From assembly GCA_951406725.2 (NCBI GenBank), contig OX597822.1, positions 33,852,001 to 33,916,000 on the forward strand: DNA of 64,000 bases, written 5' to 3'. Shown in pieces: positions 4,385 to 58,880 of this stretch; position 1 is the first letter of the stretch, and each line of letters starts with the position of its first letter. The notes under the pieces are model-generated. The model made no database searches. It was not told the origin of the DNA and was given only the letters and a program-made list of their open reading frames with translations. The stretch is from Octopus vulgaris (lineage: Eukaryota). Position numbers and translations under genes: made by a program.

Positions 4385-5922
4385 ATAAAATCTTTTGTAT
4401 CTCTGTTCCCAATGCATTTTCAAACGGCTCAACCAAATGAATCAAACCAAATGTTACATGGTAATACTATCACACCACAGGAGTGTCAACATGTACCTTC
4501 TAGAATACTATAAAGTATATTAAACGTTTCTATAAGTCAATACCGCATTGTACTGCGTTAACAGTCATTGTTTGTTTTACTTCTAACGTCTCGTGTACGA
4601 AACGTCGCAGCATAAATCAGTGCCTGGCTATAATTTCTATAGAATATCTATTGAGATAACCATAACAAGTTGTAGCGGCACAAGCAGCCAGCCATATTGG
4701 ATGAGATCTCGCGGCAGCCATTGCCATCTCCGAGACTGGAGCGAGACCTCACCTCCATCCATTTGCTATGCGCGAGATCACAACGAGGCTCGTGATGGAA
4801 ACGATATAGACGGAAAATCGATTCAGACCTGTTACCTCTTTTGGCGGCATCACCACAGCAGCATTGGCTGAGGCTTTCTGCTTGTCTATCTTCAAAGGCA
4901 ATGCGCCCACGCTATCGGAGCTTAAGATGGTAGCTGAGAGTAGCACACTTCACCTTTCCTGTAAATAAACCAGTTGTAAATAGCAGTTCCACTTGAGGTC
5001 TTTTCTCTTTGCCTGCCGAAAGTCTGAATTACATAAAGAACAAGAAGAATGATGGAAGGAGATGATATTCCTCCGATATAATAAACCTTGCCTTCCATTA
5101 TTAAAAATTTTTTAAAAGAGGAAAAGAAAAAAAATGAAAGAAAATTAGTGTAAATATTTTGCAGCCCAGCTCTCTTTATTAATAGCAAGATAGAATTGAA
5201 TTTTCTTTCCACATAACTTCTGCTTCTTGGCTATGAAGTTAAAAAGAAAAATAATACTTGATTTTATTAAGGATGGAAATTTGTCCATTCCCCCTTTCAG
5301 TCATCATAATTCCCCCTCCAAGGTAAACAACTTTTATGAGGGACATTGTGTTCTGTATGCCCTGAATGCAACACCAGTAGCAGTAGGGGCAACAACAAAA
5401 GCAACAGCAGCAGCCGTTCAAGAATTTGGACCTGGAGATCTCCATTACCAGCGACTTCGAGGGCCACCTCCCAGTAGTGTCGGGCGTCAACGAAGAGCCC
5501 TCGACTACAGTAAGACAACCAAAGTTTTTTTCCAAGGTCTGGGATCTCCCGCTCCTAAACCTCAGACCATCACCTAATCACTCTTACCTGTCTTGTTGCT
5601 TAACAACAACAACAGCAGCAGCAGCAGTGAGACCGTCACAAACGTTAGAACATTACACCAACGAAATACACAAATGAGATAATATACGTATATTTAAACA
5701 TTGGCACAAGGCCACGGATTTTGTCTGAAGGCTAAAGGCCATTCAAACGACCCCATCACTTGGTTATTATTCCTCATTTTTCGGAACCGGAAGCATGAAA
5801 TGGAAACTTGATATCGGTGAGATTTGAACACAAAACGTAATGGACTGTAATTAAGTTACAATGTTCGACTGTATTTCACAGTCGACGGTATCATACACAC
5901 ATACATATACACACACACACAC

Positions 5923-6170: not shown

Positions 6171-7017
6171 GAAATTGATAGATAGATTGATAGGTAATTT
6201 TTTTTTACTCGTTTTCTATATCCTTCATTCATAATTTCTAGCTAAGAGCAGATGTTCGTGTTGACAGCATATCACATACACGCACGCGCGCACGCATATT
6301 GTAACCAATAGATCAGACATCCACATACTAAAATCACCAGCGCGGCAATATTTCCGTAGCTGAAATCATTATGCTATAAATAGGTACCGCAATGGAGGTA
6401 GGAAACGAATTATGGCTATAAACAGTGATAACGCTGCACAATCGATGAGTTTTACCGGGTTTGTCTCGTAGATTGCGTTTCTCGTCTGTAATCATTTTAT
6501 TTCATTCGGTTAGTAAAACGCGTGGAGTTCATAATGATATAAGCCACAACACGTTGGTCCATAAAAATAAAAATAATTAAATACTGATAAATGATATCTT
6601 TTGTTGGCTGCAAGGGCCGATCATCATCATTATTGTTCGACCGTGGTCGAGACTAAATTCCATAGTCTTTTCAAATGGCTAATAATGTGTGCGCGCGCCA
6701 CTACTACACACATTGGAAAGCATTGTACAACCAAGTACTAAAGAAGATCTTTCCTCCTCCATGAAACAAAGCTGTTCCCGCTGGACGTCAACCCAGTATT
6801 TCTAAGCTACGGACCGAGTGATTTATTGTAAGGTTATCTCCCTAGATAGATTGCCTTCACTACGGCTAAGGAGCACTTTCTACCCCAAGGGCTGAAGATC
6901 TCGGGCGTGTGCATTATCGAAATATATATATGAGTGCATACATACATACATACATACATACATACATACATACATGCATACATAATACATACATATACAT
7001 GTATTATATATATGCAT

Positions 7018-9298: not shown

Positions 9299-9704
9299 AG
9301 GCGGCGAGTTGGCAGAATCGCTAGCACGCCGGGCGAAATGCTTTGTGGTATTTCGTCCGCCGCTGCGTTCAAATTCCGCCGAGATCGACTTTGCTTTTCA
9401 TCCTTTCGGGGTCGATTAAATAAGTACCAGTTGCGCACTGGGGTCGATATAATCGACTTAATCCGTTTGTCTGTCCTCGTTTGTCCTCTGTGTGTTTAGC
9501 CCCTTGTGGGTAGTAAAGAAATAGGTATTTCGTCTGCCGTTATGTTCTGAGTTCAAATTCCGCCGGGGTCGACTTTGCCTTTTATCCTTTCGGGGTCGAT
9601 AAATTAAGTACCAGTTAACTGGGGTCGATATTATCGACTTAATACCCTTGTCTGTCCTTGTTTGTCCCCTCTATGTTTAGCCCCTTGTGGGCAATAAAGA
9701 AATA
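9299..9704 (+). mobile_element. SINE family B, tandem dimer with Tx1-like tails
   Basis: Head GGCGGCGAGTTGGCAGAATCG, B-box-like GTTCAAATTCC, core GACTTTGCCTTT(C/T)ATCCTTTCGGGGTCGAT and tail AGCCCCTTGTGGG..AAAGAAATA, twice. Confidence 0.9.
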
Positions 9705-13256: not shown

Positions 13257-13652
13257 ATTTACTAATCTCGGCACAAGGCCCGAAATTTTGAGGGAAGGAG
13301 TCAGTCGATTAGATTGACCCCAGGACGCAACTGGTACTTAATTTATCGACTCCAAAAGGATAAAAGGCAAAGTCGACCTCGGCGGAATTTGTACTCAGAA
13401 CGTAGCCGCGGACAAAATATCTATTTCTTTACTACCCACAAGGGGCTAAACACAGAGAGGACAAACAAGGACAGACAAACGGATTAAGTCGATTACAGCG
13501 ACCCCAGTGCATAACTGGTACTTAATTTATCGACCTCGAAAGGATGAAAGGCAAACTCAACCTCGGCGGAATTTGAACTCAGAACGTAGCGGCAGACGAA
13601 ATATGGCTACGCATTTCGCCCGGCGTGCTAACGTTTCTACCAGCTCGCCGCC
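13257..13652 (-). mobile_element. SINE family B dimer (two different tails)
   Basis: Two cores, with a probable TSD TTTTTGTTT(T/A)AATATT. Confidence 0.85.
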
Positions 13653-20007: not shown

Positions 20008-20425
20008 TATTTCTTTACTGCCCACAAGGGACTAAACACAGAGAGGACAAACAAGGACAGACAAACGGATCAAGTCGATTATATCGACCCCAGTGCGTAA
20101 CTGGTACTTATTTAATCGAACCCGAAAGGATGAAAATCAAAGTTGACCTCGGCGGAATTTGAACTCAGAACGTAGCGGCAGACGAAATACCTATTTCTTT
20201 ACTCTGCACAATGGGCTAAACACAGAGAGGACAATCAAAGACAGACAAACGGATTAAGTCGATTAGATCGACCCCAGTGCGTAACTGGTACTTAATTTAT
20301 CGACCCCGAAAGGATGAAAGGCAAAGTCGACCTCGGCGGAATTTGAACTCAGAACGTAACGACAGACAAAATACCGCTAAGCATTTCGCCCGGCGAGCTA
20401 ACGTTTCTGCCAGCTCGCCACCTTA
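20008..20425 (-). mobile_element. SINE family B dimer
   Basis: Two cores, with a 15 bp TSD AATTAC(T/A)GACGTACC (19993-20007 and 20426-20440). Confidence 0.92.
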
Positions 20426-26977: not shown

Positions 26978-27209
26978 TATTTCTTTACTACCCAAAAGGG
27001 GCTAAACACAGAGGGGACAAACAAGGACAGACAAAGGGATTAAGTCGATTACATCGACCCCAGTGCGTAACTGGTACTTAATTTATCGACCCCGAAAGGA
27101 TGAAAGGCAAAGTCGACCTCGGCGGAATTTGAACTCGGAACGTAACGACAGACGAAATACGGCTACGCAGGTCGCCCGGCGTGCTAACGTTTCTGCCAGC
27201 TCGCCGCCG
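26978..27209 (-). mobile_element. SINE family B monomer
   Basis: Full family match with a probable TSD GTGTATGCATACATA. Confidence 0.9.
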
Positions 27210-30522: not shown

Positions 30523-30935
30523 GGCGCAGGAGTGGCTGTGTGGTAAGTAGCTTGTTTACCAACCACATGGTTCCGGGTTCAGTCCCACTGCGTGGCACCT
30601 TGGGCAAGTGTCTTCTACTATAGTCTCGGGCCGACCAAAGCCTTGTGAGTGGATTTGGTAGACGGAAACTGAAAGAAGCCCGTCGTATATATGTATATAT
30701 ATATATGCGTGTGTGTGTTTGTGCGTCTGTGTTTGTCCCCTTAGCATTGCTTGACAACCGATGCTGGTGTGTTTATGTCCCCGTTACTTAGCGGTTCGGC
30801 AAAAGAGACCGATATAATAAGTACTGGGCTTACAAAAGAATAAGTCCCGGGGTCGAGTTGCTCGATTAAAGGCGGTGCTCCAGCATGGCCGCAGTCAAAT
30901 GACTGAAACAGGTAAAAGAGTAAAAGAGTAAAGAG
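30523..30935 (+). mobile_element. tRNA-derived SINE family A (CORE-like), full length
   Basis: A box TGGCTGTGTGG, B box GGTTCAGTCC, CORE-like GGCACCTTGGGCAAGTG, an internal microsatellite and a (GTAAAAGA)n tail. Confidence 0.9.
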
Positions 30936-31147
30936 AGTATATACAAAAATACAGATGATTTTATAAATAAGCAAGAAATATGAAACGAGTGCAAAAAATA
31001 TACAAATTAATTTATATAAAAAAAAAAGCATTCGTTGTGTTTCCAAAGCAAATATAGAAGCGTCGAAGAATATGTAAAATGTATTCTAACCTATTATTTA
31101 AACCTGAATGATTGTCGAAGTACATCATTAATAAAGACTTTATGATC

Positions 31148-31611
31148 TTTTATCTTTTACTTGTTTCAATTATTGGGCTACAGCTATGCTGGGGCACGGC
31201 CTTGAAGGGTTTTAGTCGACCAAATCGACCCCATATGTCAAACAATAGGTGGGGGACATACACACACAGATATTACAAATATTGTATTTCTATCTATCTA
31301 TCCATCTATCTATCAGTCAGGGAGGAAATAAGCTCTCATGTGGTTATTTCCTCCCTGACTGAGGTTCCCGTGGTCTTTTCTGTAGGCTTTTCTTCCCACG
31401 GATGAACCCAATCTTGTTTTATCAATGTTTTTTTAAAAAAGTGTTTCTGTGATACACGATTCCTTTTTTTTTCTCCTCCTCTCGATCCCTTTTGATTGAA
31501 ATCTTACATTTATTTTCCTTTTTTTTCCACCCTCGAAAAGAAAAGCTCTACATTTGTATTTGTCCCCTCTGTATTCAGCCCTGCGTGGCTAATAAAAGAA
31601 AGTTATATATC

Positions 31612-31688
<77 letters not shown>

Positions 31689-31912
31689 GTCGGTCTACCT
31701 ATTTATCTATCTATCTGAGGTGTGTGTATGTATGTGTACGACGAGCTTCCACACAGAACCCATCTGCCAATTTCACTCACGTGACATTGGCTTTGGTCGG
31801 CTGGGGTTATTGTAGAAGGCCCATGTCCAAGATTTCCTGCAGAGAAACTGAACCCAAAATAATGTAGCTAGCAGCTGCAAAGCTAGTTTCTTAACGACAC
31901 AGCCATGTCTGC
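31148..31912 (-). mobile_element. Old SINE family A copy split by the Tx1-like tail insertion
   Basis: The tail part is at 31148-31265 and the head part at 31735-31912, with 31313-31602 inside the central microsatellite. Confidence 0.65.
31313..31602 (+). mobile_element. 5'-truncated 3' UTR/tail of a related Tx1-like LINE inside a (TATC)n tract
   Basis: GGTTCCCGTGGTCTTTTCTGTAGGCTTTTCTTCCCACGGATGAAC resembles LINE 58665-58704. The tail TGTCCCCTCTGTATTCAGCCCTGCGTGGCTAATAAAAGAA resembles the LINE tail. TATC repeats lie on both sides. Confidence 0.7.
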
Positions 31913-41304: not shown

Positions 41305-41888
41305 CAGAAACGTTAGCACGCCGGGCGAAATGCGTAGCCGTATTTCGTCTGCCGTTACGTTCTGAGTTCAAAGTCCTCCGAGGTCGACTTTGCCTTTCAT
41401 CTTTTCGGGGTCGATAAATTAAGTACCAGTTACGCACTGGGTCCATAAAATCGACTAAATCCGTCTGTCTGTTCTTGTTTGTCTCCTCTGTGTTTACCCC
41501 TTTGTGGGCAGTAAAAAAATTGGTACTTCGTCTGCGGCTACGATCTCAGTTCAAATTCCGCCGAGGTCGACTTTGCCTTTCATCCTTTCGGGGTCGATAA
41601 ATTAAGTACCGGTTACGCACTGGGGTCGATATAATCGACTTAATCCGTCTGTCTGTCCTTGTTTATCCCCTCTATGTTTAGCCTTTGTGGGCAGTAAAGA
41701 AATAAGAATCGTTAGCTAGACAAAATGCCTAGCGACATTTCGTCCACCTATACGTTCTGAGCTCAAATTACCCCGAGGTCGACTTTTCCTTTCATACTTC
41801 CGGGTTCGATATAATAAGTACCAGTTGAACACTAGCGTCGATTCAATCGAACGAAACTACTATCCTTGTGCCAAAATTTGATACCAAT
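41305..41888 (+). mobile_element. SINE family B trimer-like array
   Basis: Three consecutive cores. Confidence 0.85.
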
Positions 41889-48840: not shown

Positions 48841-49193
48841 CTTTTGCGGAGGAGGTAAGTCGATTAGGTCGACTCCCGTACGCAACTGGTACTTAATTTA
48901 TTGGCTCCGAAAGGATGAAAGGCAAAGTCGACCTCGACGGAATTTGAACTCAGAACTTAAAAACAGACGAAATACCTATTTCTTTACTACCCACAAGGAG
49001 CTAAACACAGAGAGGACAAACGGATTAAGTTGATTATATCGACTCCAGTGCGTAACTGGTACTTATTTAATCGACCCCGAAAGGATGAAAGGCAAAGTCG
49101 ACCTCGGCGGAATTTGAACTTAGAACGTAGCGGCAGACGAAATACCCCTAAGCATTTCACCAGGCACGCTAGCGATTCAGCCAGCTCGCCGCC

Positions 49194-52846: not shown

Positions 52847-52905
52847 CCTGTTGTCACCAGGATATGCAAGGTCAATCATCATCATCATCATCATCATTAT
52901 TATTA

Positions 52906-53010
<105 letters not shown>

Positions 53011-53243
53011 CTTCCGACGCCGTTAGACGTACGTGAATCAGCTCCGTGAATTTGACACCAATTTCATTGGAAATCTATTAATAGGTTTGAATATTTTTTA
53101 ATATTTCTGTAGCCAAACCGACCGGCTTCTTTGCGGAGCTCGTCGGTTGGGCGAAATTTTGCCCCATTCGGGGTGAAATTGCGTTTGAAAATTTTGAACA
53201 TTTGACATTTTTCAACATTTTGAATATTACAACAAAAAAAAAC

Positions 53244-54266
53244 ATGGCTATGAAGCGAACAGTTGGCTGTTCCTTCCTTCAAGATACACTCCCTCCGCAA
53301 ACACGCACAACTCGTACAAAACACCCACTTCACGCCTTAAAAGGCAACAAAGATTCTCCTTCCGAACCGCAGAGCACGCGCTCGGTTCAAAAGGAAAATG
53401 CAAGTCATGACGTCGCGTTCGACGTAATTCTTGATTTTCCCCTCTGCCTTCACCCAATGCTTTGGTAAGGAAGGAGGAGGGAGAAAAAACAAATACAAAA
53501 ATCATCACAAACATTGACACGGAAATAAAAGAAAAAACTTCCAACAATTTTGCTTCTGCTGCGAAGCAAATTTCGGAGGAAGTTAAGATAACTCTAGAAG
53601 ATGTGAAAAGAGCGAAGGAATTGTTAAGGAAGGATGGCAATGGTATCTTCCTCAATACTCCACAAGAGGTGATTGAAAGCACCAACAAGCAAACAATAAT
53701 TTACAAAGTTTTCGACAGAAAACTAAAAAGAATAACAAATGCCACACCCCAACAGTTGGAGATAGCTCTAAAGCCCATTTGGGCCCAAAAGAGCTACGTA
53801 ACCAAGGGGAAGCGTTTTGGAACCGTGGAGGTTCGCTTCCCAACAGAGGAGCTTGCAAGGGCGAACGCCATTTCGCCCTTGCAAACTGAGAATTTGTTAC
53901 TAATTCCAACCCACCTCGGGCGAAGAGTTACAAAAATAAAAATCGACCTCGTCCCCCCTGAATTAAATATGTCATGGCTGGTGGCAGCTGTCCTCTATGA
54001 TATAGAGGACACTACCACCATTCTAGATGTCAGGAGAGTGAGGGCGAAAAACTGGTTGGGGATGGGAGTGCTGCTTCTTGCGCAAATTCAGCAAGAGAAT
54101 ATAAGTAAAGTCCCTGATTTCGTAAGTTTGCCGGACGGCACTAGGCTAAACGTTGCTGTGGAGGGGCGAAAGCCAAAATGCTTTCTCTGCAGCAGCGAAA
54201 GCCACTTAAAGAGGGACTGTCCCATTCACAAAAAGAGGATGGAGGCTTTCAGCAAGAGGCAGCAGC

Positions 54267-54300
<34 letters not shown>

Positions 54301-55120
54301 CAAGCAACAACAACAGAAACAACAAAAACAGCAAGAAACACCAAAGGCTGCCACACCACCAACACCATCACCAACACCAGCACCAAGACGAGCAACACCA
54401 CCTCCAACAACAACAACCACCACCAAACCAACACCGACAACCACCACCAAACCAACACCGACACCAGTACCTCGAAGGTCGACAGCAGCGACATCAACAG
54501 TAACAGGAGCAGCGGCACCACCGATACCGGTGGAACCAGAAACTTTTCGTCCTGCTACTGAAGCAGACCCCTCAACCATTCCTTTGCCGGATGAAGAGAT
54601 CTCGGATTGTGCGAGCTCCGATTCCAACAAAGGAGAATGGAATATAGTACCTCCAAAAAAGAAAAGGAGGAAAAAACAAAAAGATTTAAAGGGGAAGCAC
54701 GAACAAACAGTACTTCCCAACATCAACAACAACATCAACAACAACACACACTCACAACAACAAACAACAACAACAACACTTTCGACACCACTACTGCCAC
54801 TACCACAGACACAAACAAACACAGACACAATTATAGACACAATTACATCAATAAACACAAAGAACCAAAAACTAGTGGAGTACTTAAAAAACAAAACTAG
54901 TACAAATATAACCGATTTCATCATACCAACACAAAACACACCACCAGCACACATTCTCACAATAAAAATAAATGCAAAAACATATGATGAAATCAAACAA
55001 ATATTCCCTAACGATGTGGGATCGCTAGGGAAAAGTTTCTCGAAGAAACTTTATAAAAACATTGTGGAAGCACCCGTGCAAAAGCACAAGGGAGCCACCC
55101 CCCACCACCAACAACAGTAA
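53244..55120 (+). CDS. LINE ORF1p (gag-like, one CCHC zinc knuckle), with an apparent 1-nt frameshift near 53435
   Basis: The long frame 53435-55120 encodes CFLCSSESHLKRDC (CX2CX4HX4C, 54179-54220), polyQ, a P/T-rich region and basic PPKKKRRKK. The ATG at 53244 opens a different frame that overlaps the start of the long frame. Confidence 0.85.
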
Positions 55121-55163
55121 GTAGAGCCTTTTTTTTCTCCTTTTTTTCCCCCTACTTTGAGAC

Positions 55164-58100
55164 ATGGCAAATCTTAGAATCGGTTGCTTGAATGTGAGAG
55201 GCCTCGGGTCACCTTGGAAACAGGGTCACCTGTTAAACGACCTGAGGTTTCATGATGTGGATGTAGCAGCCATCAGTGAAACCAGGCTCTCCCACCCGCA
55301 GGAACTCGCAGCCCTTTTCGGCGGATACGAGATATTTCTATCTCCGTGTCGGCCGGGAGCGGGCGGTGGTGGTACTGCGGTTTTGTTTCGGAAGGGCCTG
55401 GACCTGAAAATAAGGACAGTCTTCTTGGATCCGGAAGGTAAGTTGGTGGTCCTCGACGTCGACGGTAGTGACGGCGGTGCTTTCAGACTGCTGGCTGCCT
55501 ACGCTCCGACAGGAGCAGGGCAGTCGGATTATTTCAAACGTCTGGAAGTTTTCCTGGGAACGTCACGCACTCTAGTACTAGTTGGGGTTTGGAACGCTGT
55601 CTTAGACGAACGTTTCGATCGGGTGGGCAGGGGAGCGTCTGTTAGGAGAGGGGGAGGGTGCAAGAGCCTCGCCAACCTACTCGGCCGCTTTCAGCTGTCC
55701 GACAGGTTTCGACTAGACAACCCGAATGTGCCAATGTGGACTTGGACAAACCGCATCGGGTCGTCTAGATCGTACTTAGATAGAGTGTTTTGTAGGCCAG
55801 CGGATAAGGACAGCGTAGGGTGTCCACATTTCCACCTAGTCGAATATACGGACCACAAATTAGTGATCTGTACGGTCGACTTAGATAGGCTACATAGACA
55901 GGGACCCGGCTACTGGAAGCTGAACGCGTCGTTAACGGCGTGCAAAGCTTACAGAGACCGGATTAGTTTACTAGTTAAGCGGGCGCTCACGGGGGCAATC
56001 ATCAACAACAACTGGTGGTTTGCCCTCAAGAGAGCAATTAAAGTAGAGTCGATTAGGTATAGTAAGACTCTAGCTATTGAACGTAGGAAGAGAGAGCGGG
56101 ATTTAGTTAAGAAACTAGACGAGGCTCTTGACACTGGCATCGCGACCGACGTGTTGGCGGCAAGGTTGGCCCTCGACCAACACTTCGACGCCAAACACGA
56201 AGGCTGCGTTGTCAGAGCTAAGGCACGTTCGCTAAGCGGGGAGGGGACTAGAGCCGCTCGATGGGCCCGCGTGGCGGAGGCGAAGCGAGGCAACAGAGCA
56301 ACCATTCGGTCTTTGGTGGACCAGAACGGGCGCGAGGTTACCCAACCGAAGCAGATGTGTACGGTGCTTCAGCGGCACTTTGCTCAACTGTTTGGGACGA
56401 GCGGTGGAACGGACACCAACGGTACAGACTTCGGTGTGTACCTGGACGGACTGCCGCAACTCTCGGACAGCGAGGCAGAGTGCTGCGAAGGACCGATATC
56501 TGCCTGGGAAGTACAGGAAGCGATGAAGAGTTGCACGAGAGGTAGATCGCCGGGTTTGGATGGTCTGCCCTACGAGCTTTACTTTTCGATGCCAGACTTG
56601 TTTGCGGACCTGTTGGCAAACGTCTACTGCAACTGGCAGCAAAACGGGAGAATTCCTGCTTTTGTCTGTCGAGGGGTGGTGGCTTTGCTAAAGAAGGACC
56701 CAAACAAGGGGGACGTTATAGGGAATTTCCGGCCCATCACTCTGCTCAATGCAGAGTTGAAGATTTTGGCCAAGGTGCTAGCCAAGAGATTGGCGCTTGT
56801 CGTGGACAAGCTGGTCGGCGGGACGCAGACATGCGCCGTGCCGACCAGGTCGATACACGACAACCTCCATCTCATGCGCTACATCATAGAGAGGGTGGGT
56901 AACGACGCTGGCGCGGGTGGGGCTTTGATCAACTTGGATCAGAGTAAAGCCTTCGATAGGGTCGACCATCAGTACCTGGCAGCTGTCCTCAAGGCAGCCG
57001 GCTTCGGTCCAGTCTTCCGCGGGTGGATCGCTGCCTTATACAGCAACATCTGCTCGGTGATACGGGTGAACGGTCACCTTTCGGAACCGTTCGACATCTC
57101 GCGTTCGGTCCGCCAAGGATGCCCTCTCTCCTCCCTCTTGTACATTTTGACTCTCGAGCCATTACTGCGCAAGTTGGAGGCTTTGAGGGGCATCCCGCGC
57201 GATCTAGGAGGCGGAAACAGCGTGTCTGCTTATGCCGACGACGTCACCGTGGTGGTGTCGAGCCACAGGCACATTGGCCTGATTGGCGAGACGCTAAACC
57301 AGTACGAAGCGGTGACAGGGGCAAAGATTAACGCGGAAAAGTCTGTGGGCTTGCAACTGGGCACCTGGAGAGGCAAGCCCATGCCGTCCAACAGCGTCGT
57401 AGGGCGCTGGACAGACGGACCCGTTAAACTGCTCGGGGTCTGGTTCGGTCCGGACCTCCAGGTGGATAAGAACTGGGAAGAGGTGACGAGCAGGGTGGCA
57501 CGTCTCACCCAGAAATGGGCCGAGAGGAAGCTGTCCCTGAAAGGTCGAGCGGAGGTGGCGAATGCGTACATCGCATCCGTCATCTATTACCGCTTGACCG
57601 TCGTCCCTTGTCCCGACCGCTGGTTGGCCAAGCTGGTACGTCTGCTCTTCGACTTTTTGTGGAAGGGTCAGGTGCCACTGGTCAGGCGATCCATCTGCTG
57701 TCAACGACCGCTGAACGGAGGCCTTGGAATGCCGTGGTTGCTGTTGCGCAGACATGCGCTCAGGCTGCGGCATCTCAAGCGCTTCCTAGACGGTGAACAG
57801 GTGTGGTCGTCTTTTGTCAGACGCGATTTTCCGCAGCTCGTCTCTTTGACGGAGCTGCAGACCTGGATCAAACGTAGACCGAGAAAGGGCGCTTGGCACC
57901 TCGAGTGCCGTCAAGCCCTCTCCGCCCTCCACCAGGCGGGCAATGCGGTCGGTTACAGCTCCACTCTAGCGTTCTATAGAGGGTTAGTGGAGGAAAAATG
58001 CGACGACGTTCTCGGGGAAACTCTAGGCGTTGAAGACGACGAACTGAGCGGTCTGTTCGGGAGGACTTTCGGGCCGGGGCCGATGGATAATTTCCAGAGG

Positions 58101-58598
58101 TCTCTCGCCTGGCAGTGCTACCGAGGGGCTCTGCCTGTTCGAGATAAACTCTACCGGCACGGAAGTGCCGTCAGCCGGGCCTGCCCGAGGTGTTGCCAGG
58201 ACGACGAAACCGTTCTGCACGCACTCGTCCAGTGCCCGAGTATTGCTGAAATATGGGTTTATGTCGAACAGCTACTGTCACGTGTAGGACGGATCCGACT
58301 ATCGGCCGAATCCATAGTGAAGATTGCCCCGCCGACCTCCTTTAACAAGGAGGGCGAGGCCGTTTTCTTGTGCCTTGTGGCTGTGGCGAAAGAGGTGGTG
58401 TGGTGGACTCGTTTGAAAGGGCTAAAGTCAGACACTTTCCTCTTTGGTCAAGGCCTCATCAACTTTTTCAAGTTTCACTTGAAAAGGAAGATGAGGTTAG
58501 AGAGGAAAGTGCTGTCCGATAGCAAGTTTTATGAAAGGTGGGTGAATTGTGCGAGACTGGCCTGTATAAATGGACCAGTTCTCAGGTTTCGCCTGTGA
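55164..58598 (+). CDS. LINE ORF2p: AP-endonuclease + reverse transcriptase + C-terminal zinc finger (1144 aa)
   Basis: APE motifs LNVRGL, AISET, AYAP, YLDRV, TDH. L1/Tx1 linker GPGYWKLN. RT motifs SPGLDGLP, RPITLLN, LDQSKAFDRV, VRQGCPLS, YADD, KLLGV. Post-RT GGLG. C-terminal CPRC-x8-H-x4-C. The frame is uninterrupted. Confidence 0.97.
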   Translation: MANLRIGCLNVRGLGSPWKQGHLLNDLRFHDVDVAAISETRLSHPQELAALFGGYEIFLSPCRPGAGGGGTAVLFRKGLDLKIRTVFLDPEGKLVVLDVDGSDGGAFRLLAAYAPTGAGQSDYFKRLEVFLGTSRTLVLVGVWNAVLDERFDRVGRGASVRRGGGCKSLANLLGRFQLSDRFRLDNPNVPMWTWTNRIGSSRSYLDRVFCRPADKDSVGCPHFHLVEYTDHKLVICTVDLDRLHRQGPGYWKLNASLTACKAYRDRISLLVKRALTGAIINNNWWFALKRAIKVESIRYSKTLAIERRKRERDLVKKLDEALDTGIATDVLAARLALDQHFDAKHEGCVVRAKARSLSGEGTRAARWARVAEAKRGNRATIRSLVDQNGREVTQPKQMCTVLQRHFAQLFGTSGGTDTNGTDFGVYLDGLPQLSDSEAECCEGPISAWEVQEAMKSCTRGRSPGLDGLPYELYFSMPDLFADLLANVYCNWQQNGRIPAFVCRGVVALLKKDPNKGDVIGNFRPITLLNAELKILAKVLAKRLALVVDKLVGGTQTCAVPTRSIHDNLHLMRYIIERVGNDAGAGGALINLDQSKAFDRVDHQYLAAVLKAAGFGPVFRGWIAALYSNICSVIRVNGHLSEPFDISRSVRQGCPLSSLLYILTLEPLLRKLEALRGIPRDLGGGNSVSAYADDVTVVVSSHRHIGLIGETLNQYEAVTGAKINAEKSVGLQLGTWRGKPMPSNSVVGRWTDGPVKLLGVWFGPDLQVDKNWEEVTSRVARLTQKWAERKLSLKGRAEVANAYIASVIYYRLTVVPCPDRWLAKLVRLLFDFLWKGQVPLVRRSICCQRPLNGGLGMPWLLLRRHALRLRHLKRFLDGEQVWSSFVRRDFPQLVSLTELQTWIKRRPRKGAWHLECRQALSALHQAGNAVGYSSTLAFYRGLVEEKCDDVLGETLGVEDDELSGLFGRTFGPGPMDNFQRSLAWQCYRGALPVRDKLYRHGSAVSRACPRCCQDDETVLHALVQCPSIAEIWVYVEQLLSRVGRIRLSAESIVKIAPPTSFNKEGEAVFLCLVAVAKEVVWWTRLKGLKSDTFLFGQGLINFFKFHLKRKMRLERKVLSDSKFYERWVNCARLACINGPVLRFRL

Positions 58599-58880
58599 TT
58601 TCAAAGAAAAAGGTAATGTAAAAGGAGAAGAAAGGGGACTCTCTACACCCCCTTTTTTTGACCAGGCTCCCGTTGGCTTTTGTAGGGTTTTTTCCACCGG
58701 GAACATTTCGAGACGTCTCCCCCTTTTGGGAGTTTTTCATTGTTTTAATAATCATTGTTTTAAAGTTTTTTTTACACGGATTTTTTAACAAACGGACAAA
58801 ACCCTTTGTAACCTTTCGTCCTGTCCTGTCCCTTTATGTAATCATGCCTGTCAGCCCTTGTGGCCAATAAAAAAGAATTG

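What the first reader, a model, noticed from the sequence alone, without database searches (positions are those of the whole stretch)
31291..31690. Sister LINE tail in (TATC)n keeps the same multi-hairpin 3' UTR architecture despite sequence change
Seen: 31313-31362 is a perfect 19 bp hairpin with loop GCTCTCATGTGG. The full LINE has AAAGGGG/CCCCTTT around a loop starting ACTCTCT at the matching place (58631-58655). Both are followed by a second hairpin with a U-rich loop centred on TGTAGG (31363-31408 vs 58666-58704) and a terminal GCC-loop-GGC stem before AATAAA. Inference: a conserved RNA recognition module is shared by two related families that may target different microsatellites (ATT vs TATC).
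Basis: partly seen in the sequence, partly recalled or inferred. Interest (0 to 1): 0.7.

Follow-up and report, generated by a model that had tools for sequence, protein, structure and literature searches.

The report
Snap-back hairpin on microsatellite-targeting LINE
This is a short leftover copy of a jumping gene whose family sits mostly inside (TATC)n repeats; its striking perfect hairpin was found in this one copy only and likely formed when the new DNA folded back on itself during insertion, while weaker hairpins further along are shared with sister families and likely help the copying enzyme recognise its RNA.

Summary
The 19-bp hairpin (31313-31362) is real but not conserved. Its left arm was found in this copy only (1 genome match; 1 of 100 listed copies). 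It is an inverted duplicate of 31344-31362 at the 5' truncation junction, most likely a cDNA snap-back; a second copy has the same layout.

The rest (31332-31603) is the 3' UTR of an L1-group, Tx1-like LINE, 71% identical in ORF2 to the LINE at 53010-58880. It targets (TATC)n: 26 of 42 truncated copies have TATC on the 5' side (background 0.5%), 0 have ATT. The ATT group gives 9 of 24 ATT, 0 TATC.

Shared structure lies elsewhere: hairpin 2, a missed CCUWUU-loop hairpin with swapped stems, a loop-to-box pairing that is strong in the TATC group only, and a last ~45 nt also found in a SINE with at least 54,000 tail matches.

Microsatellite-targeting Tx1 families and snap-back junctions are known kinds. 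This scan reported the GATA targeting, pseudoknot and SINE tail before on other DNA. Tx1 membership was not tested by tree.

The parts
31290..31312 (+). 5' (TATC)n target flank; the next two bases TC (31313-31314) fit both the repeat and the inverted arm (2-nt microhomology)
   Evidence: sequence
31313..31331 (-). Copy-private inverted duplicate of 31344-31362 (likely snap-back arm)
31332..31603 (+). 5'-truncated 3' UTR of the (TATC)n-targeting LINE family (family A); 31332-31343 is the 12-nt loop of the fold-back
   Evidence: nearest copies differ by 8 substitutions over ~260 nt
31363..31408 (+). Hairpin 2 (inner stem CCGTGG/CCACGG, U-rich loop); shared with sister families with compensatory changes
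31381..31394 (+). Loop word of hairpin 2, predicted to pair with 31538-31552 (14 bp, one bulge): candidate pseudoknot
31455..31467 (+). Decayed first copy of the CCUWUU-loop hairpin (aligns with 58717-58732)
31482..31499 (+). Second copy of the CCUWUU-loop hairpin (TCGATC/GATTGA)
   Evidence: (z -3.2)
31538..31552 (+). Distal box complementary to the hairpin-2 loop
31559..31603 (+). Terminal ~45 nt with AGCC-loop-GGCT and AATAAA; similar to the tail of an abundant SINE
31604..31716 (+). 3' (TATC)n array
52896..53009 (+). 5' (ATT)n flank of the full-length sister LINE
53435..55120 (+). ORF1 of family B (561 aa stop to stop; weak CCHC knuckle)
55161..58598 (+). ORF2 of family B (APE endonuclease, RT, zf-RVT); this copy reads GVWN where most other copies read GDWN
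58631..58655 (+). Family-B hairpin 1 (AAAGGGG/CCCCTTT); not the counterpart of 31313-31362
58668..58702 (+). Family-B hairpin 2; its loop word 58683-58691 is complementary to 58798-58805 (8 bp, not significant alone)
58717..58732 (+). Family-B CCUUUU-loop hairpin (CTCCC/GGGAG)
58854..58880 (+). Family-B terminal GCC-CTTGT-GGC and AATAAA
58881..58992 (+). 3' (ATT)n array

Best explanation
31332-31603 is a 5'-truncated copy of an L1-group (likely Tx1-clade) LINE family that sits mostly inside (TATC)n arrays, and the perfect hairpin at its 5' end, found in this copy only, likely arose when the new cDNA end folded back and copied 19 nt of itself before joining the TATC flank. Steps: (1, inferred) the endonuclease nicks the GATA strand and reverse transcription starts at the RNA 3' end; (2, shown) the copy stops 272 nt in; (3, inferred) the cDNA 3' end snaps back over a 12-nt loop and extends 19 nt; (4, consistent with sequence) it joins the target through a 2-nt TC microhomology. 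The family-level RNA structure is separate from this scar: hairpin 2 and a CCUWUU-loop hairpin (covariation seen), a predicted loop-to-box pseudoknot, and a terminal ~45-nt piece that is likely the minimal signal for ORF2 because a SINE carries only that piece. The ATT versus TATC difference is likely set by the endonuclease, with the YAP loop as the best candidate.
For: Left arm unique: 0 of 29 other copies; 1 match; 1 of 100 listed, of 129. Same layout in a second copy, L235: TATC, 75-bp inverted arm with 1 mismatch, 8-nt loop closed by a native TCG/CGA. Snap-back is a described 5' junction class for R2 (PMC11371274, passages). Parent family: ORF2 71% identical over 1123 aa; 10,617 tail matches, 0 in the control, 86 of 100 listed followed by TATC (by eye). 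Target: 26 of 42 truncated and 23 of 24 full-length junctions have TATC on the 5' side versus 191 of 35,478 background positions, 0 of 42 have ATT. ATT group: 9 of 24 truncated and 4 of 4 full-length have ATT, 0 of 24 TATC. L206 sits in (GATA)n on both sides and L021 has a 9-bp duplication at a non-repeat site, so the long repeat comes from the target. Covariation: RNAalifold on a blind MAFFT alignment of 13 UTRs picks hairpin 2 and the CCUWUU hairpin; 6 of 11 named pairs change on both sides, score reached by 0 of 500 shuffles. Loop-to-box pairing P=0.003 (no shuffle of 300 as good) in 5 of 6 TATC-group UTRs, and 0 of 17 foreign boxes pair as well. Endonuclease: beta-hairpin WTW[ST]NRIGSSRSYLDR is the same in both families; the YAP loop reads mostly YAPSLTG (TATC) versus YAPTGAG (ATT/CAT).
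Against: At this copy's fold the native sequence offers no terminal base pairs to prime from, so a non-templated base or mismatch extension must be assumed. 16 of 42 truncated TATC-group junctions and 15 of 24 ATT-group junctions lacked the repeat within 30 nt; several are mis-called ends, interruptions or a gap, but not all were resolved. A blind long-duplex test for the pseudoknot showed no discrimination (1 of 23 with P<0.05), and the focused test was not significant in any of 17 non-TATC UTRs. Most stem swaps separate one clade from another, so they are few independent events; the number of pairs with double changes was matched by 89 of 500 shuffles. Hairpin 1 and the terminal hairpin are not in the consensus fold. 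The CCUWUU motif was defined after seeing the data. The two endonucleases differ at many other places too.
Confidence: 0.8

Rival explanations
1. Hairpin 1 is a conserved RNA module shared by the two families.
For: Both elements show a hairpin just upstream of hairpin 2 with a CTCTC word; purine-arm/pyrimidine-arm hairpins recur at this place in the ATT group, and the parent family has a weak GAGAGC/GCTCTC stem.
Against: The left arm is absent from 29 of 29 other copies and unique in the genome; about 61 of 100 listed copies break the parent stem; three other TATC subfamilies have unrelated sequence here; not in the consensus fold.
Confidence: 0.03
2. The inverted arm came from twin priming: the upper target strand primed on the RNA through TC and copied 19 nt, with the first cDNA running past it.
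For: A 2-nt TC microhomology at the flank; no native priming pairs at the fold; L237 carries an inverted duplicate that begins upstream of the sense part, a twin-priming-like layout.
Against: Here and in L235 the inverted piece lies wholly inside the sense piece and starts 8-12 nt from its end, which is the default outcome of fold-back and needs extra strand displacement under twin priming (inference).
Confidence: 0.12
3. The arm is an assembly artefact or a later repair event at a break, unrelated to the insertion.
For: Perfect arms; self-annealing of broken ends gives inverted duplications near L1 sites (10.1101/2024.12.14.628481, passages).
Against: The arm sits exactly at the truncation junction in two independent copies; L235's arms differ by one substitution, as expected after ageing in the genome.
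Confidence: 0.07
4. Target choice is made mainly by pairing of the RNA's last few bases (UUAUC or AUU) with the nicked DNA, with a less selective endonuclease.
For: The beta-hairpin loop is identical in both families; the non-repeat insertion L021 still begins with TTATC; the SINE with a similar tail lands at other words, mostly GGTA/ATAT/AGAA.
Against: L206 lies in the reverse-oriented repeat with no TATC tail; the YAP loop tracks the target across two 79-80% identical TATC-group endonucleases; the endonuclease mainly sets the target in other non-LTR elements (PMC4494074, passage).
Confidence: 0.25

Closest known systems
Kibi (TC)n and Koshi (TTC)n of teleosts; crocodilian Tx1 families in (TTCC)n/(TTTC)n (PMC4494074, passages)
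   Same: L1-group LINE with APE endonuclease inserting into a microsatellite, repeat on both sides, close relatives with different repeat units
   Different: Targets here are (TATC)n and (ATT)n in an octopod; a structured, poly(A)-less 3' UTR is shared over many families; relationship to Kibi/Koshi not tested by tree
Snap-back 5' junctions of R2-protein insertions (PMC11371274, passages)
   Same: cDNA 3' end primes synthesis on the cDNA, leaving antisense element sequence joined to the upstream target
   Different: Here a natural, fixed insertion of an APE-type L1-group element; short 19-nt arm on a truncated copy
Stringent L1-clade SINE/LINE pairs: LINE1-1_ZM with maize/sorghum SINEs, L1-1_CR with SINEX-3_CR (PMC3472496, passages)
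   Same: SINE and L1-clade LINE share a 3' end; stem-loop with compensatory changes
   Different: Animal host; no poly(A); the SINE's partner family was not identified and the SINE does not share the TATC or ATT target
L1 twin-priming 5' inversions (recalled; term seen)
   Same: Inverted element sequence at the 5' junction
   Different: The inverted piece normally comes from upstream RNA; here it duplicates sequence inside the sense part

Membership tests
L1 group of non-LTR retrotransposons | ORF2 with N-terminal APE endonuclease, RT and C-terminal zinc-binding domain | tested here: met
   Pfam Exo_endo_phos, RVT_1, zf-RVT; family A has an intact 1130-aa frame, 71% identical
L1 group of non-LTR retrotransposons | ORF2 closer to L1 than to R2-type elements | tested here: met
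   PDB: human L1 ORF2p E 1e-49 over residues 5-862 versus R2 1e-23; only solved structures compared
Tx1 clade | RT groups with Xenopus Tx1L, Kibi, Koshi, Keno in a tree | not testable with these tools
   No named Tx1 reference came back; nearest named protein is an unannotated Argonauta hians protein, 72%
Tx1 clade | Target-sequence preference | tested here: met
Tx1 clade | ORF1 with RNA-binding domains and CCHC knuckle (recalled) | tested here: inconclusive
   Only a sub-threshold zf-CCHC (E 0.04-0.08); no BLASTP match beyond the knuckle to the ORF1-like part of a fish homologue
Snap-back 5' junction | Antisense element sequence between upstream target and the sense cDNA end, copied from just inside that end | tested here: met
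Snap-back 5' junction | Base pairs at the cDNA end that prime the fold-back | tested here: inconclusive
   3 bp present in L235, none native in this copy
Stringent (3'-tail-recognising) LINE | A SINE shares the LINE 3' end | tested here: met
   43-nt match at 74-79% to several window SINE units; local score just above all 500 shuffles; 54,266 tail matches; one SINE body ending in a family-A tail (L220)
Stringent (3'-tail-recognising) LINE | Conserved stem-loop with compensatory changes | tested here: inconclusive
   Met for hairpin 2 and the CCUWUU hairpin; for the terminal hairpin only indirect (stems GCC/GGC, CCC/GGG, GGC/GCC around CTTGT)
Stringent (3'-tail-recognising) LINE | 3' UTR needed for retrotransposition | not testable with these tools
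   needs a cell or in vitro assay

The most novel reading that the evidence does not exclude
An octopod radiation of L1-group LINEs keeps a folded, poly(A)-less RNA tail (hairpin 2 knotted to a distal box, a CCUWUU hairpin, and a terminal CUUGU-type stem-loop borrowed by several SINE tails) as a stringent loading signal, and switched microsatellite target from (ATT)n to (TATC)n by changing the four-residue YAP loop of the endonuclease while the beta-hairpin stayed identical. Two young, intact sister families would then give a natural pair for reprogramming an APE endonuclease.
Probability: 0.3. Interest if true: 0.65.

Novelty: new variant of a known kind. Interest (0 to 1): 0.38.

Why it matters
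The case is a warning: the strongest hairpin in a lone truncated LINE copy can be an insertion scar, and copy-to-copy comparison shows it at once. It also gives natural snap-back junctions in an APE-type element (2 of 42 truncated junctions), a class described for R2 protein in cells. The family-level result matters more. Two young sister LINEs, 71% identical in ORF2, with different microsatellite targets and an identical beta-hairpin make the determinant of target choice directly testable. A structured tail shared with a very abundant SINE would be an animal example of stringent RNA recognition in the L1 group, which the paper I read reports for plants and a green alga only.

Tried and rejected
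Hairpin 1 as a family module: rejected. The fragment as a self-amplifying short element: rejected, its 5' junction is unique. BLASTN of 31200-31720 against the window listed only microsatellite hits among the 60 rows printed, and a global alignment of the two UTRs scored 121 against a shuffle maximum of 121, so the pairwise match alone is marginal. Blind long-duplex pseudoknot test: no discrimination. Aligning hairpin 2 alone misregistered the two groups and was not used. A protein search of the genome with a 67-77% homologue returned family-B-type copies (1145-aa frames), not new families. Protein atlas: unavailable. ARAGORN found no tRNA gene in the window, so the SINE head was not typed. 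Public runs: no RNA holder listed; contigs of 4 runs give no cover over 31285-31329, where the tool skips repeats, so the arm could not be checked in independent data. Earlier-findings search by sequence returned nothing. Literature: 8 answered searches found no description of a (TATC)n- or (ATT)n-targeting octopus Tx1 family or of its 3' UTR fold; (Tx1, 3 UTR, stem-loop, pseudoknot, retrotransposon; 4 of 5 terms) gave 0 papers. Repbase, Dfam and the supplement of PMC13282606 were not seen and may hold these families.

Full report
Observation. 31313-31362 is a perfect 19-bp inverted repeat around a 12-nt loop and cannot be extended; it folds at z -8.3.

The perfect hairpin is private to this copy. 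A genome search with 31310-31603 had 2481 first-look candidates; the 39 other places listed all begin matching at query base 23 or 25, after the left arm. In all 29 other copies fetched, the upstream sequence is GAGAGC-ATTTT-like and continues into family sequence; 26 show ORF2 matches in the 1.5 kb upstream. The arm+loop junction has one match in 2.8 Gb at up to 2 mismatches. Of 129 matches to loop+right arm, 100 were listed and only this copy has the arm. So 31313-31331 is an inverted duplicate of 31344-31362, placed between the TATC flank and the truncated end; the two bases TC fit both flank and arm.

Mechanism of the scar. On the cDNA strand the order is tail, 272 nt of cDNA, then a copy of the sequence 12 nt inside its own end, then target. 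That is the layout of a snap-back junction as described for R2 protein (PMC11371274, passages). A second copy, L235, shows it more clearly: TATC, a 75-bp inverted arm with one mismatch, and an 8-nt loop closed by a native TCG/CGA. That makes 2 of 42 truncated junctions; a scan of 159 TATC-group and 113 ATT-group ends for perfect arms of 15 bp or more found these two as the only such arms at an element's 5' junction. This copy has no native closing pairs, so a non-templated base or a mismatch extension is assumed. Twin priming (L237 has that layout) and a later repair event or assembly artefact remain minor rivals.

The parent family. Long fetches gave full-length copies of about 6.2 kb with ORF1 (37-42% to the window LINE in its N-terminal part) and ORF2; L105 has an intact 1130-aa frame, 71% identical over 1123 aa. 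The window ORF2 has APE, RT and zf-RVT domains and is closest to human L1 among solved structures. The nearest named protein is from Argonauta hians, so the host is likely an octopod. Several TATC subfamilies with different UTRs nest in the same arrays; their shared tail has 10,617 matches against 0 in the control. A broader tail pattern with shorter loops has 3401 matches against 10, followed mostly by ATT, CAT, TTC or ACT, and many of 40 fetched examples lie downstream of a related ORF2.

Target or tail. Copies were found by their 3' ends, so the 5' flank is an independent test. From 159 ends, 78 junctions met the mapping rule and 66 remained after dropping 12 as duplicates (some were probably distinct copies). 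26 of 42 truncated and 23 of 24 full-length junctions have 8 nt or more of TATC within 30 nt; background is 191 of 35,478; 0 of 42 have ATT. The 16 misses include mis-called ends, an N gap, a SINE chimera, L235 (TATC beyond its arm) and L206, which lies in (GATA)n on both sides. L021 has a 9-bp duplication at a non-repeat site and L205 one of about 19 bp. For the ATT group, 113 ends gave 75 mapped, 31 with a junction inside the locus and 28 used: 9 of 24 truncated and 4 of 4 full-length have ATT, 0 of 24 have TATC. The long repeat is therefore target DNA. Pairing of a few terminal RNA bases may still help choose the site.

Endonuclease. Among 35 distinct endonuclease pieces, the beta-hairpin (WTW[ST]NRIGSSRSYLDR) is the same in both families, while the YAP loop reads mostly YAPSLTG in the TATC group, including two pieces only 79-80% identical to family A (YAPSLTG, YAPPLTG), and YAPTGAG in ATT/CAT families. 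The loop names and their role in DNA contact are recalled from L1 work. Other segments differ too, so this is a candidate only. The window's own copy reads GVWN for GDWN and is likely endonuclease-dead.

What is conserved in the RNA. A blind MAFFT alignment of 13 UTRs (13 of my 23 representatives, the three groups that align, leaving out one T-rich TATC subfamily) gave an RNAalifold consensus with the inner stem of hairpin 2 and a hairpin with a CCUWUU loop; 5 of 12 predicted pairs have double changes. Counting 11 named pairs: 88% of cells paired, 23 cells with double changes, covariation score reached by 0 of 500 shuffles, but the number of double-change pairs reached by 89 of 500. The CCUWUU stem reads GATC/GATC in the TATC group and TCCC/GGGA in family B; it was found in 12 of 23 UTRs against 1.4 expected, with the motif defined after the fact. 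Hairpin 1 and the terminal hairpin are not in the consensus.

Pseudoknot. Two earlier scan notes proposed that the hairpin-2 loop pairs with a distant box. A blind long-duplex test did not discriminate. With loops picked by eye, the TATC group shows 13-14 bp to a box 60 nt from the end, P=0.003 in 5 of 6, and none of 17 foreign boxes pairs as well. None of the 17 other UTRs is significant alone, although 21 of 23 best partners fall 55-94 nt from the end. By eye one pair swaps, C-G in the TATC group to G-C in family B. Support is good for family A and suggestive for the rest.

SINE. The last 43 nt match the end of a ~230-nt repeat with several units in the window. Its tail has 54,266 exact matches; 6 of 20 loci show 13-20-nt near-duplications that span the insert. 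It lacks the LINE's hairpin 2, box and CCUWUU hairpin by inspection, which points to the terminal piece as the minimal signal (inference). CTTGT is closed by 3 or more Watson-Crick pairs in 183 of 2556 occurrences against 1.0-2.3% for seven control words. Two of the three main stem types were my own selection patterns; the third, GGC/GCC (35), was not and marks other SINE tails.

Comparison with what is known. Tx1 families in (TC)n, (TTC)n, (TTCC)n and (TTTC)n are known (PMC4494074, passages). An Octopus vulgaris annotation lists 13 recently active L1-Tx1 families, and the word 'target' does not occur in its main text (PMC13282606, part 1 of 3 and passages; supplement not seen). Stringent L1-clade SINE/LINE pairs are reported for plants and a green alga (PMC3472496, passages). 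PMC4758252 (passages) cites the octopus SINE OR2 and a 1994 paper on three octopus tRNA-derived retroposons; I did not identify this SINE with them. This scan noted the GATA targeting, the pseudoknot and the SINE tail earlier on other DNA of this genome; these are AI notes that I used as leads and tested as stated.

Verdict. The sister-family and different-target ideas hold, and real covarying structure exists in other parts of the UTR. New variant of a known kind; interest 0.38.

Noticed in passing
window 9498-9521, 9679-9702 (+); 13424-13447, 20010-20033, 20194-20217, 26980-27003, 48979-49002 (-); also ~41478-41519 (+): Tails of an abundant ~230-nt SINE-like repeat that resemble the LINE's last 45 nt; tandem 182-nt units restart at an internal GGTATTTC word, as if copies insert into the SINE itself. 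54,266 genome matches.
   Followed up: partly
window-wide and loci: Other tails on the same SINE body end in GGC-CTTGT-GCC: the same loop as the LINE's GCC-CTTGT-GGC with the middle pair swapped. Partner LINE unknown.
   Followed up: partly
L220 (minus strand, ~6335-6372 from its 5' end): SINE body joined at the shared TTTGTCCCCTCT word to a family-A tail and TATC array: a chimera or a short family-A copy primed on homology.
   Followed up: no
window 55161-58598, ORF2 residues ~141-145: GVWN instead of GDWN in the endonuclease of this otherwise intact copy; most other family-B copies keep D (one reads GNWN).
   Followed up: partly
G000 C4:93.80-93.84 Mb, C47, C50, C1:202.33 Mb: Head-to-tail arrays of near-identical family-B copies at ~5.87-kb spacing, many with open 1145-aa frames: a very young family.
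   Followed up: no
L206: Family-A copy in the reverse-oriented microsatellite, (GATA)n on both sides.
   Followed up: partly
L237 (copy ending at 6316 on the minus strand): 5' inverted duplicate of ~110 nt that starts upstream of the sense part: twin-priming-like.
   Followed up: partly
L086; L002 (second copy): L086 has a 19-nt direct duplicate of element sequence at its 5' junction; the second L002 copy is followed by (TATG)n.
   Followed up: no
L141 and L168: The hairpin-2 loop of L168 (TGGATCTTT) is the exact complement of the distal box of L141 (AAAGATCCA), hinting at an unsampled family with that compensatory pair or at recombination.
   Followed up: no
L142, L144, L154, L162, L175, L242, L253: Very short tail-only copies (about 25-80 nt) of ATT-group families with ATT/TTC repeats on both sides.
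   Followed up: partly
L092 (minus strand, ~4600-4770): A ~170-nt palindromic MITE-like insert interrupts a family-A copy.
   Followed up: no
window ~30600-30940 (+) and ~31150-31235 (-): Pieces of another common SINE-like repeat with a GTAAAAGA-type tail lie just upstream of the finding (identity recalled as an octopus SINE, not tested).
   Followed up: no
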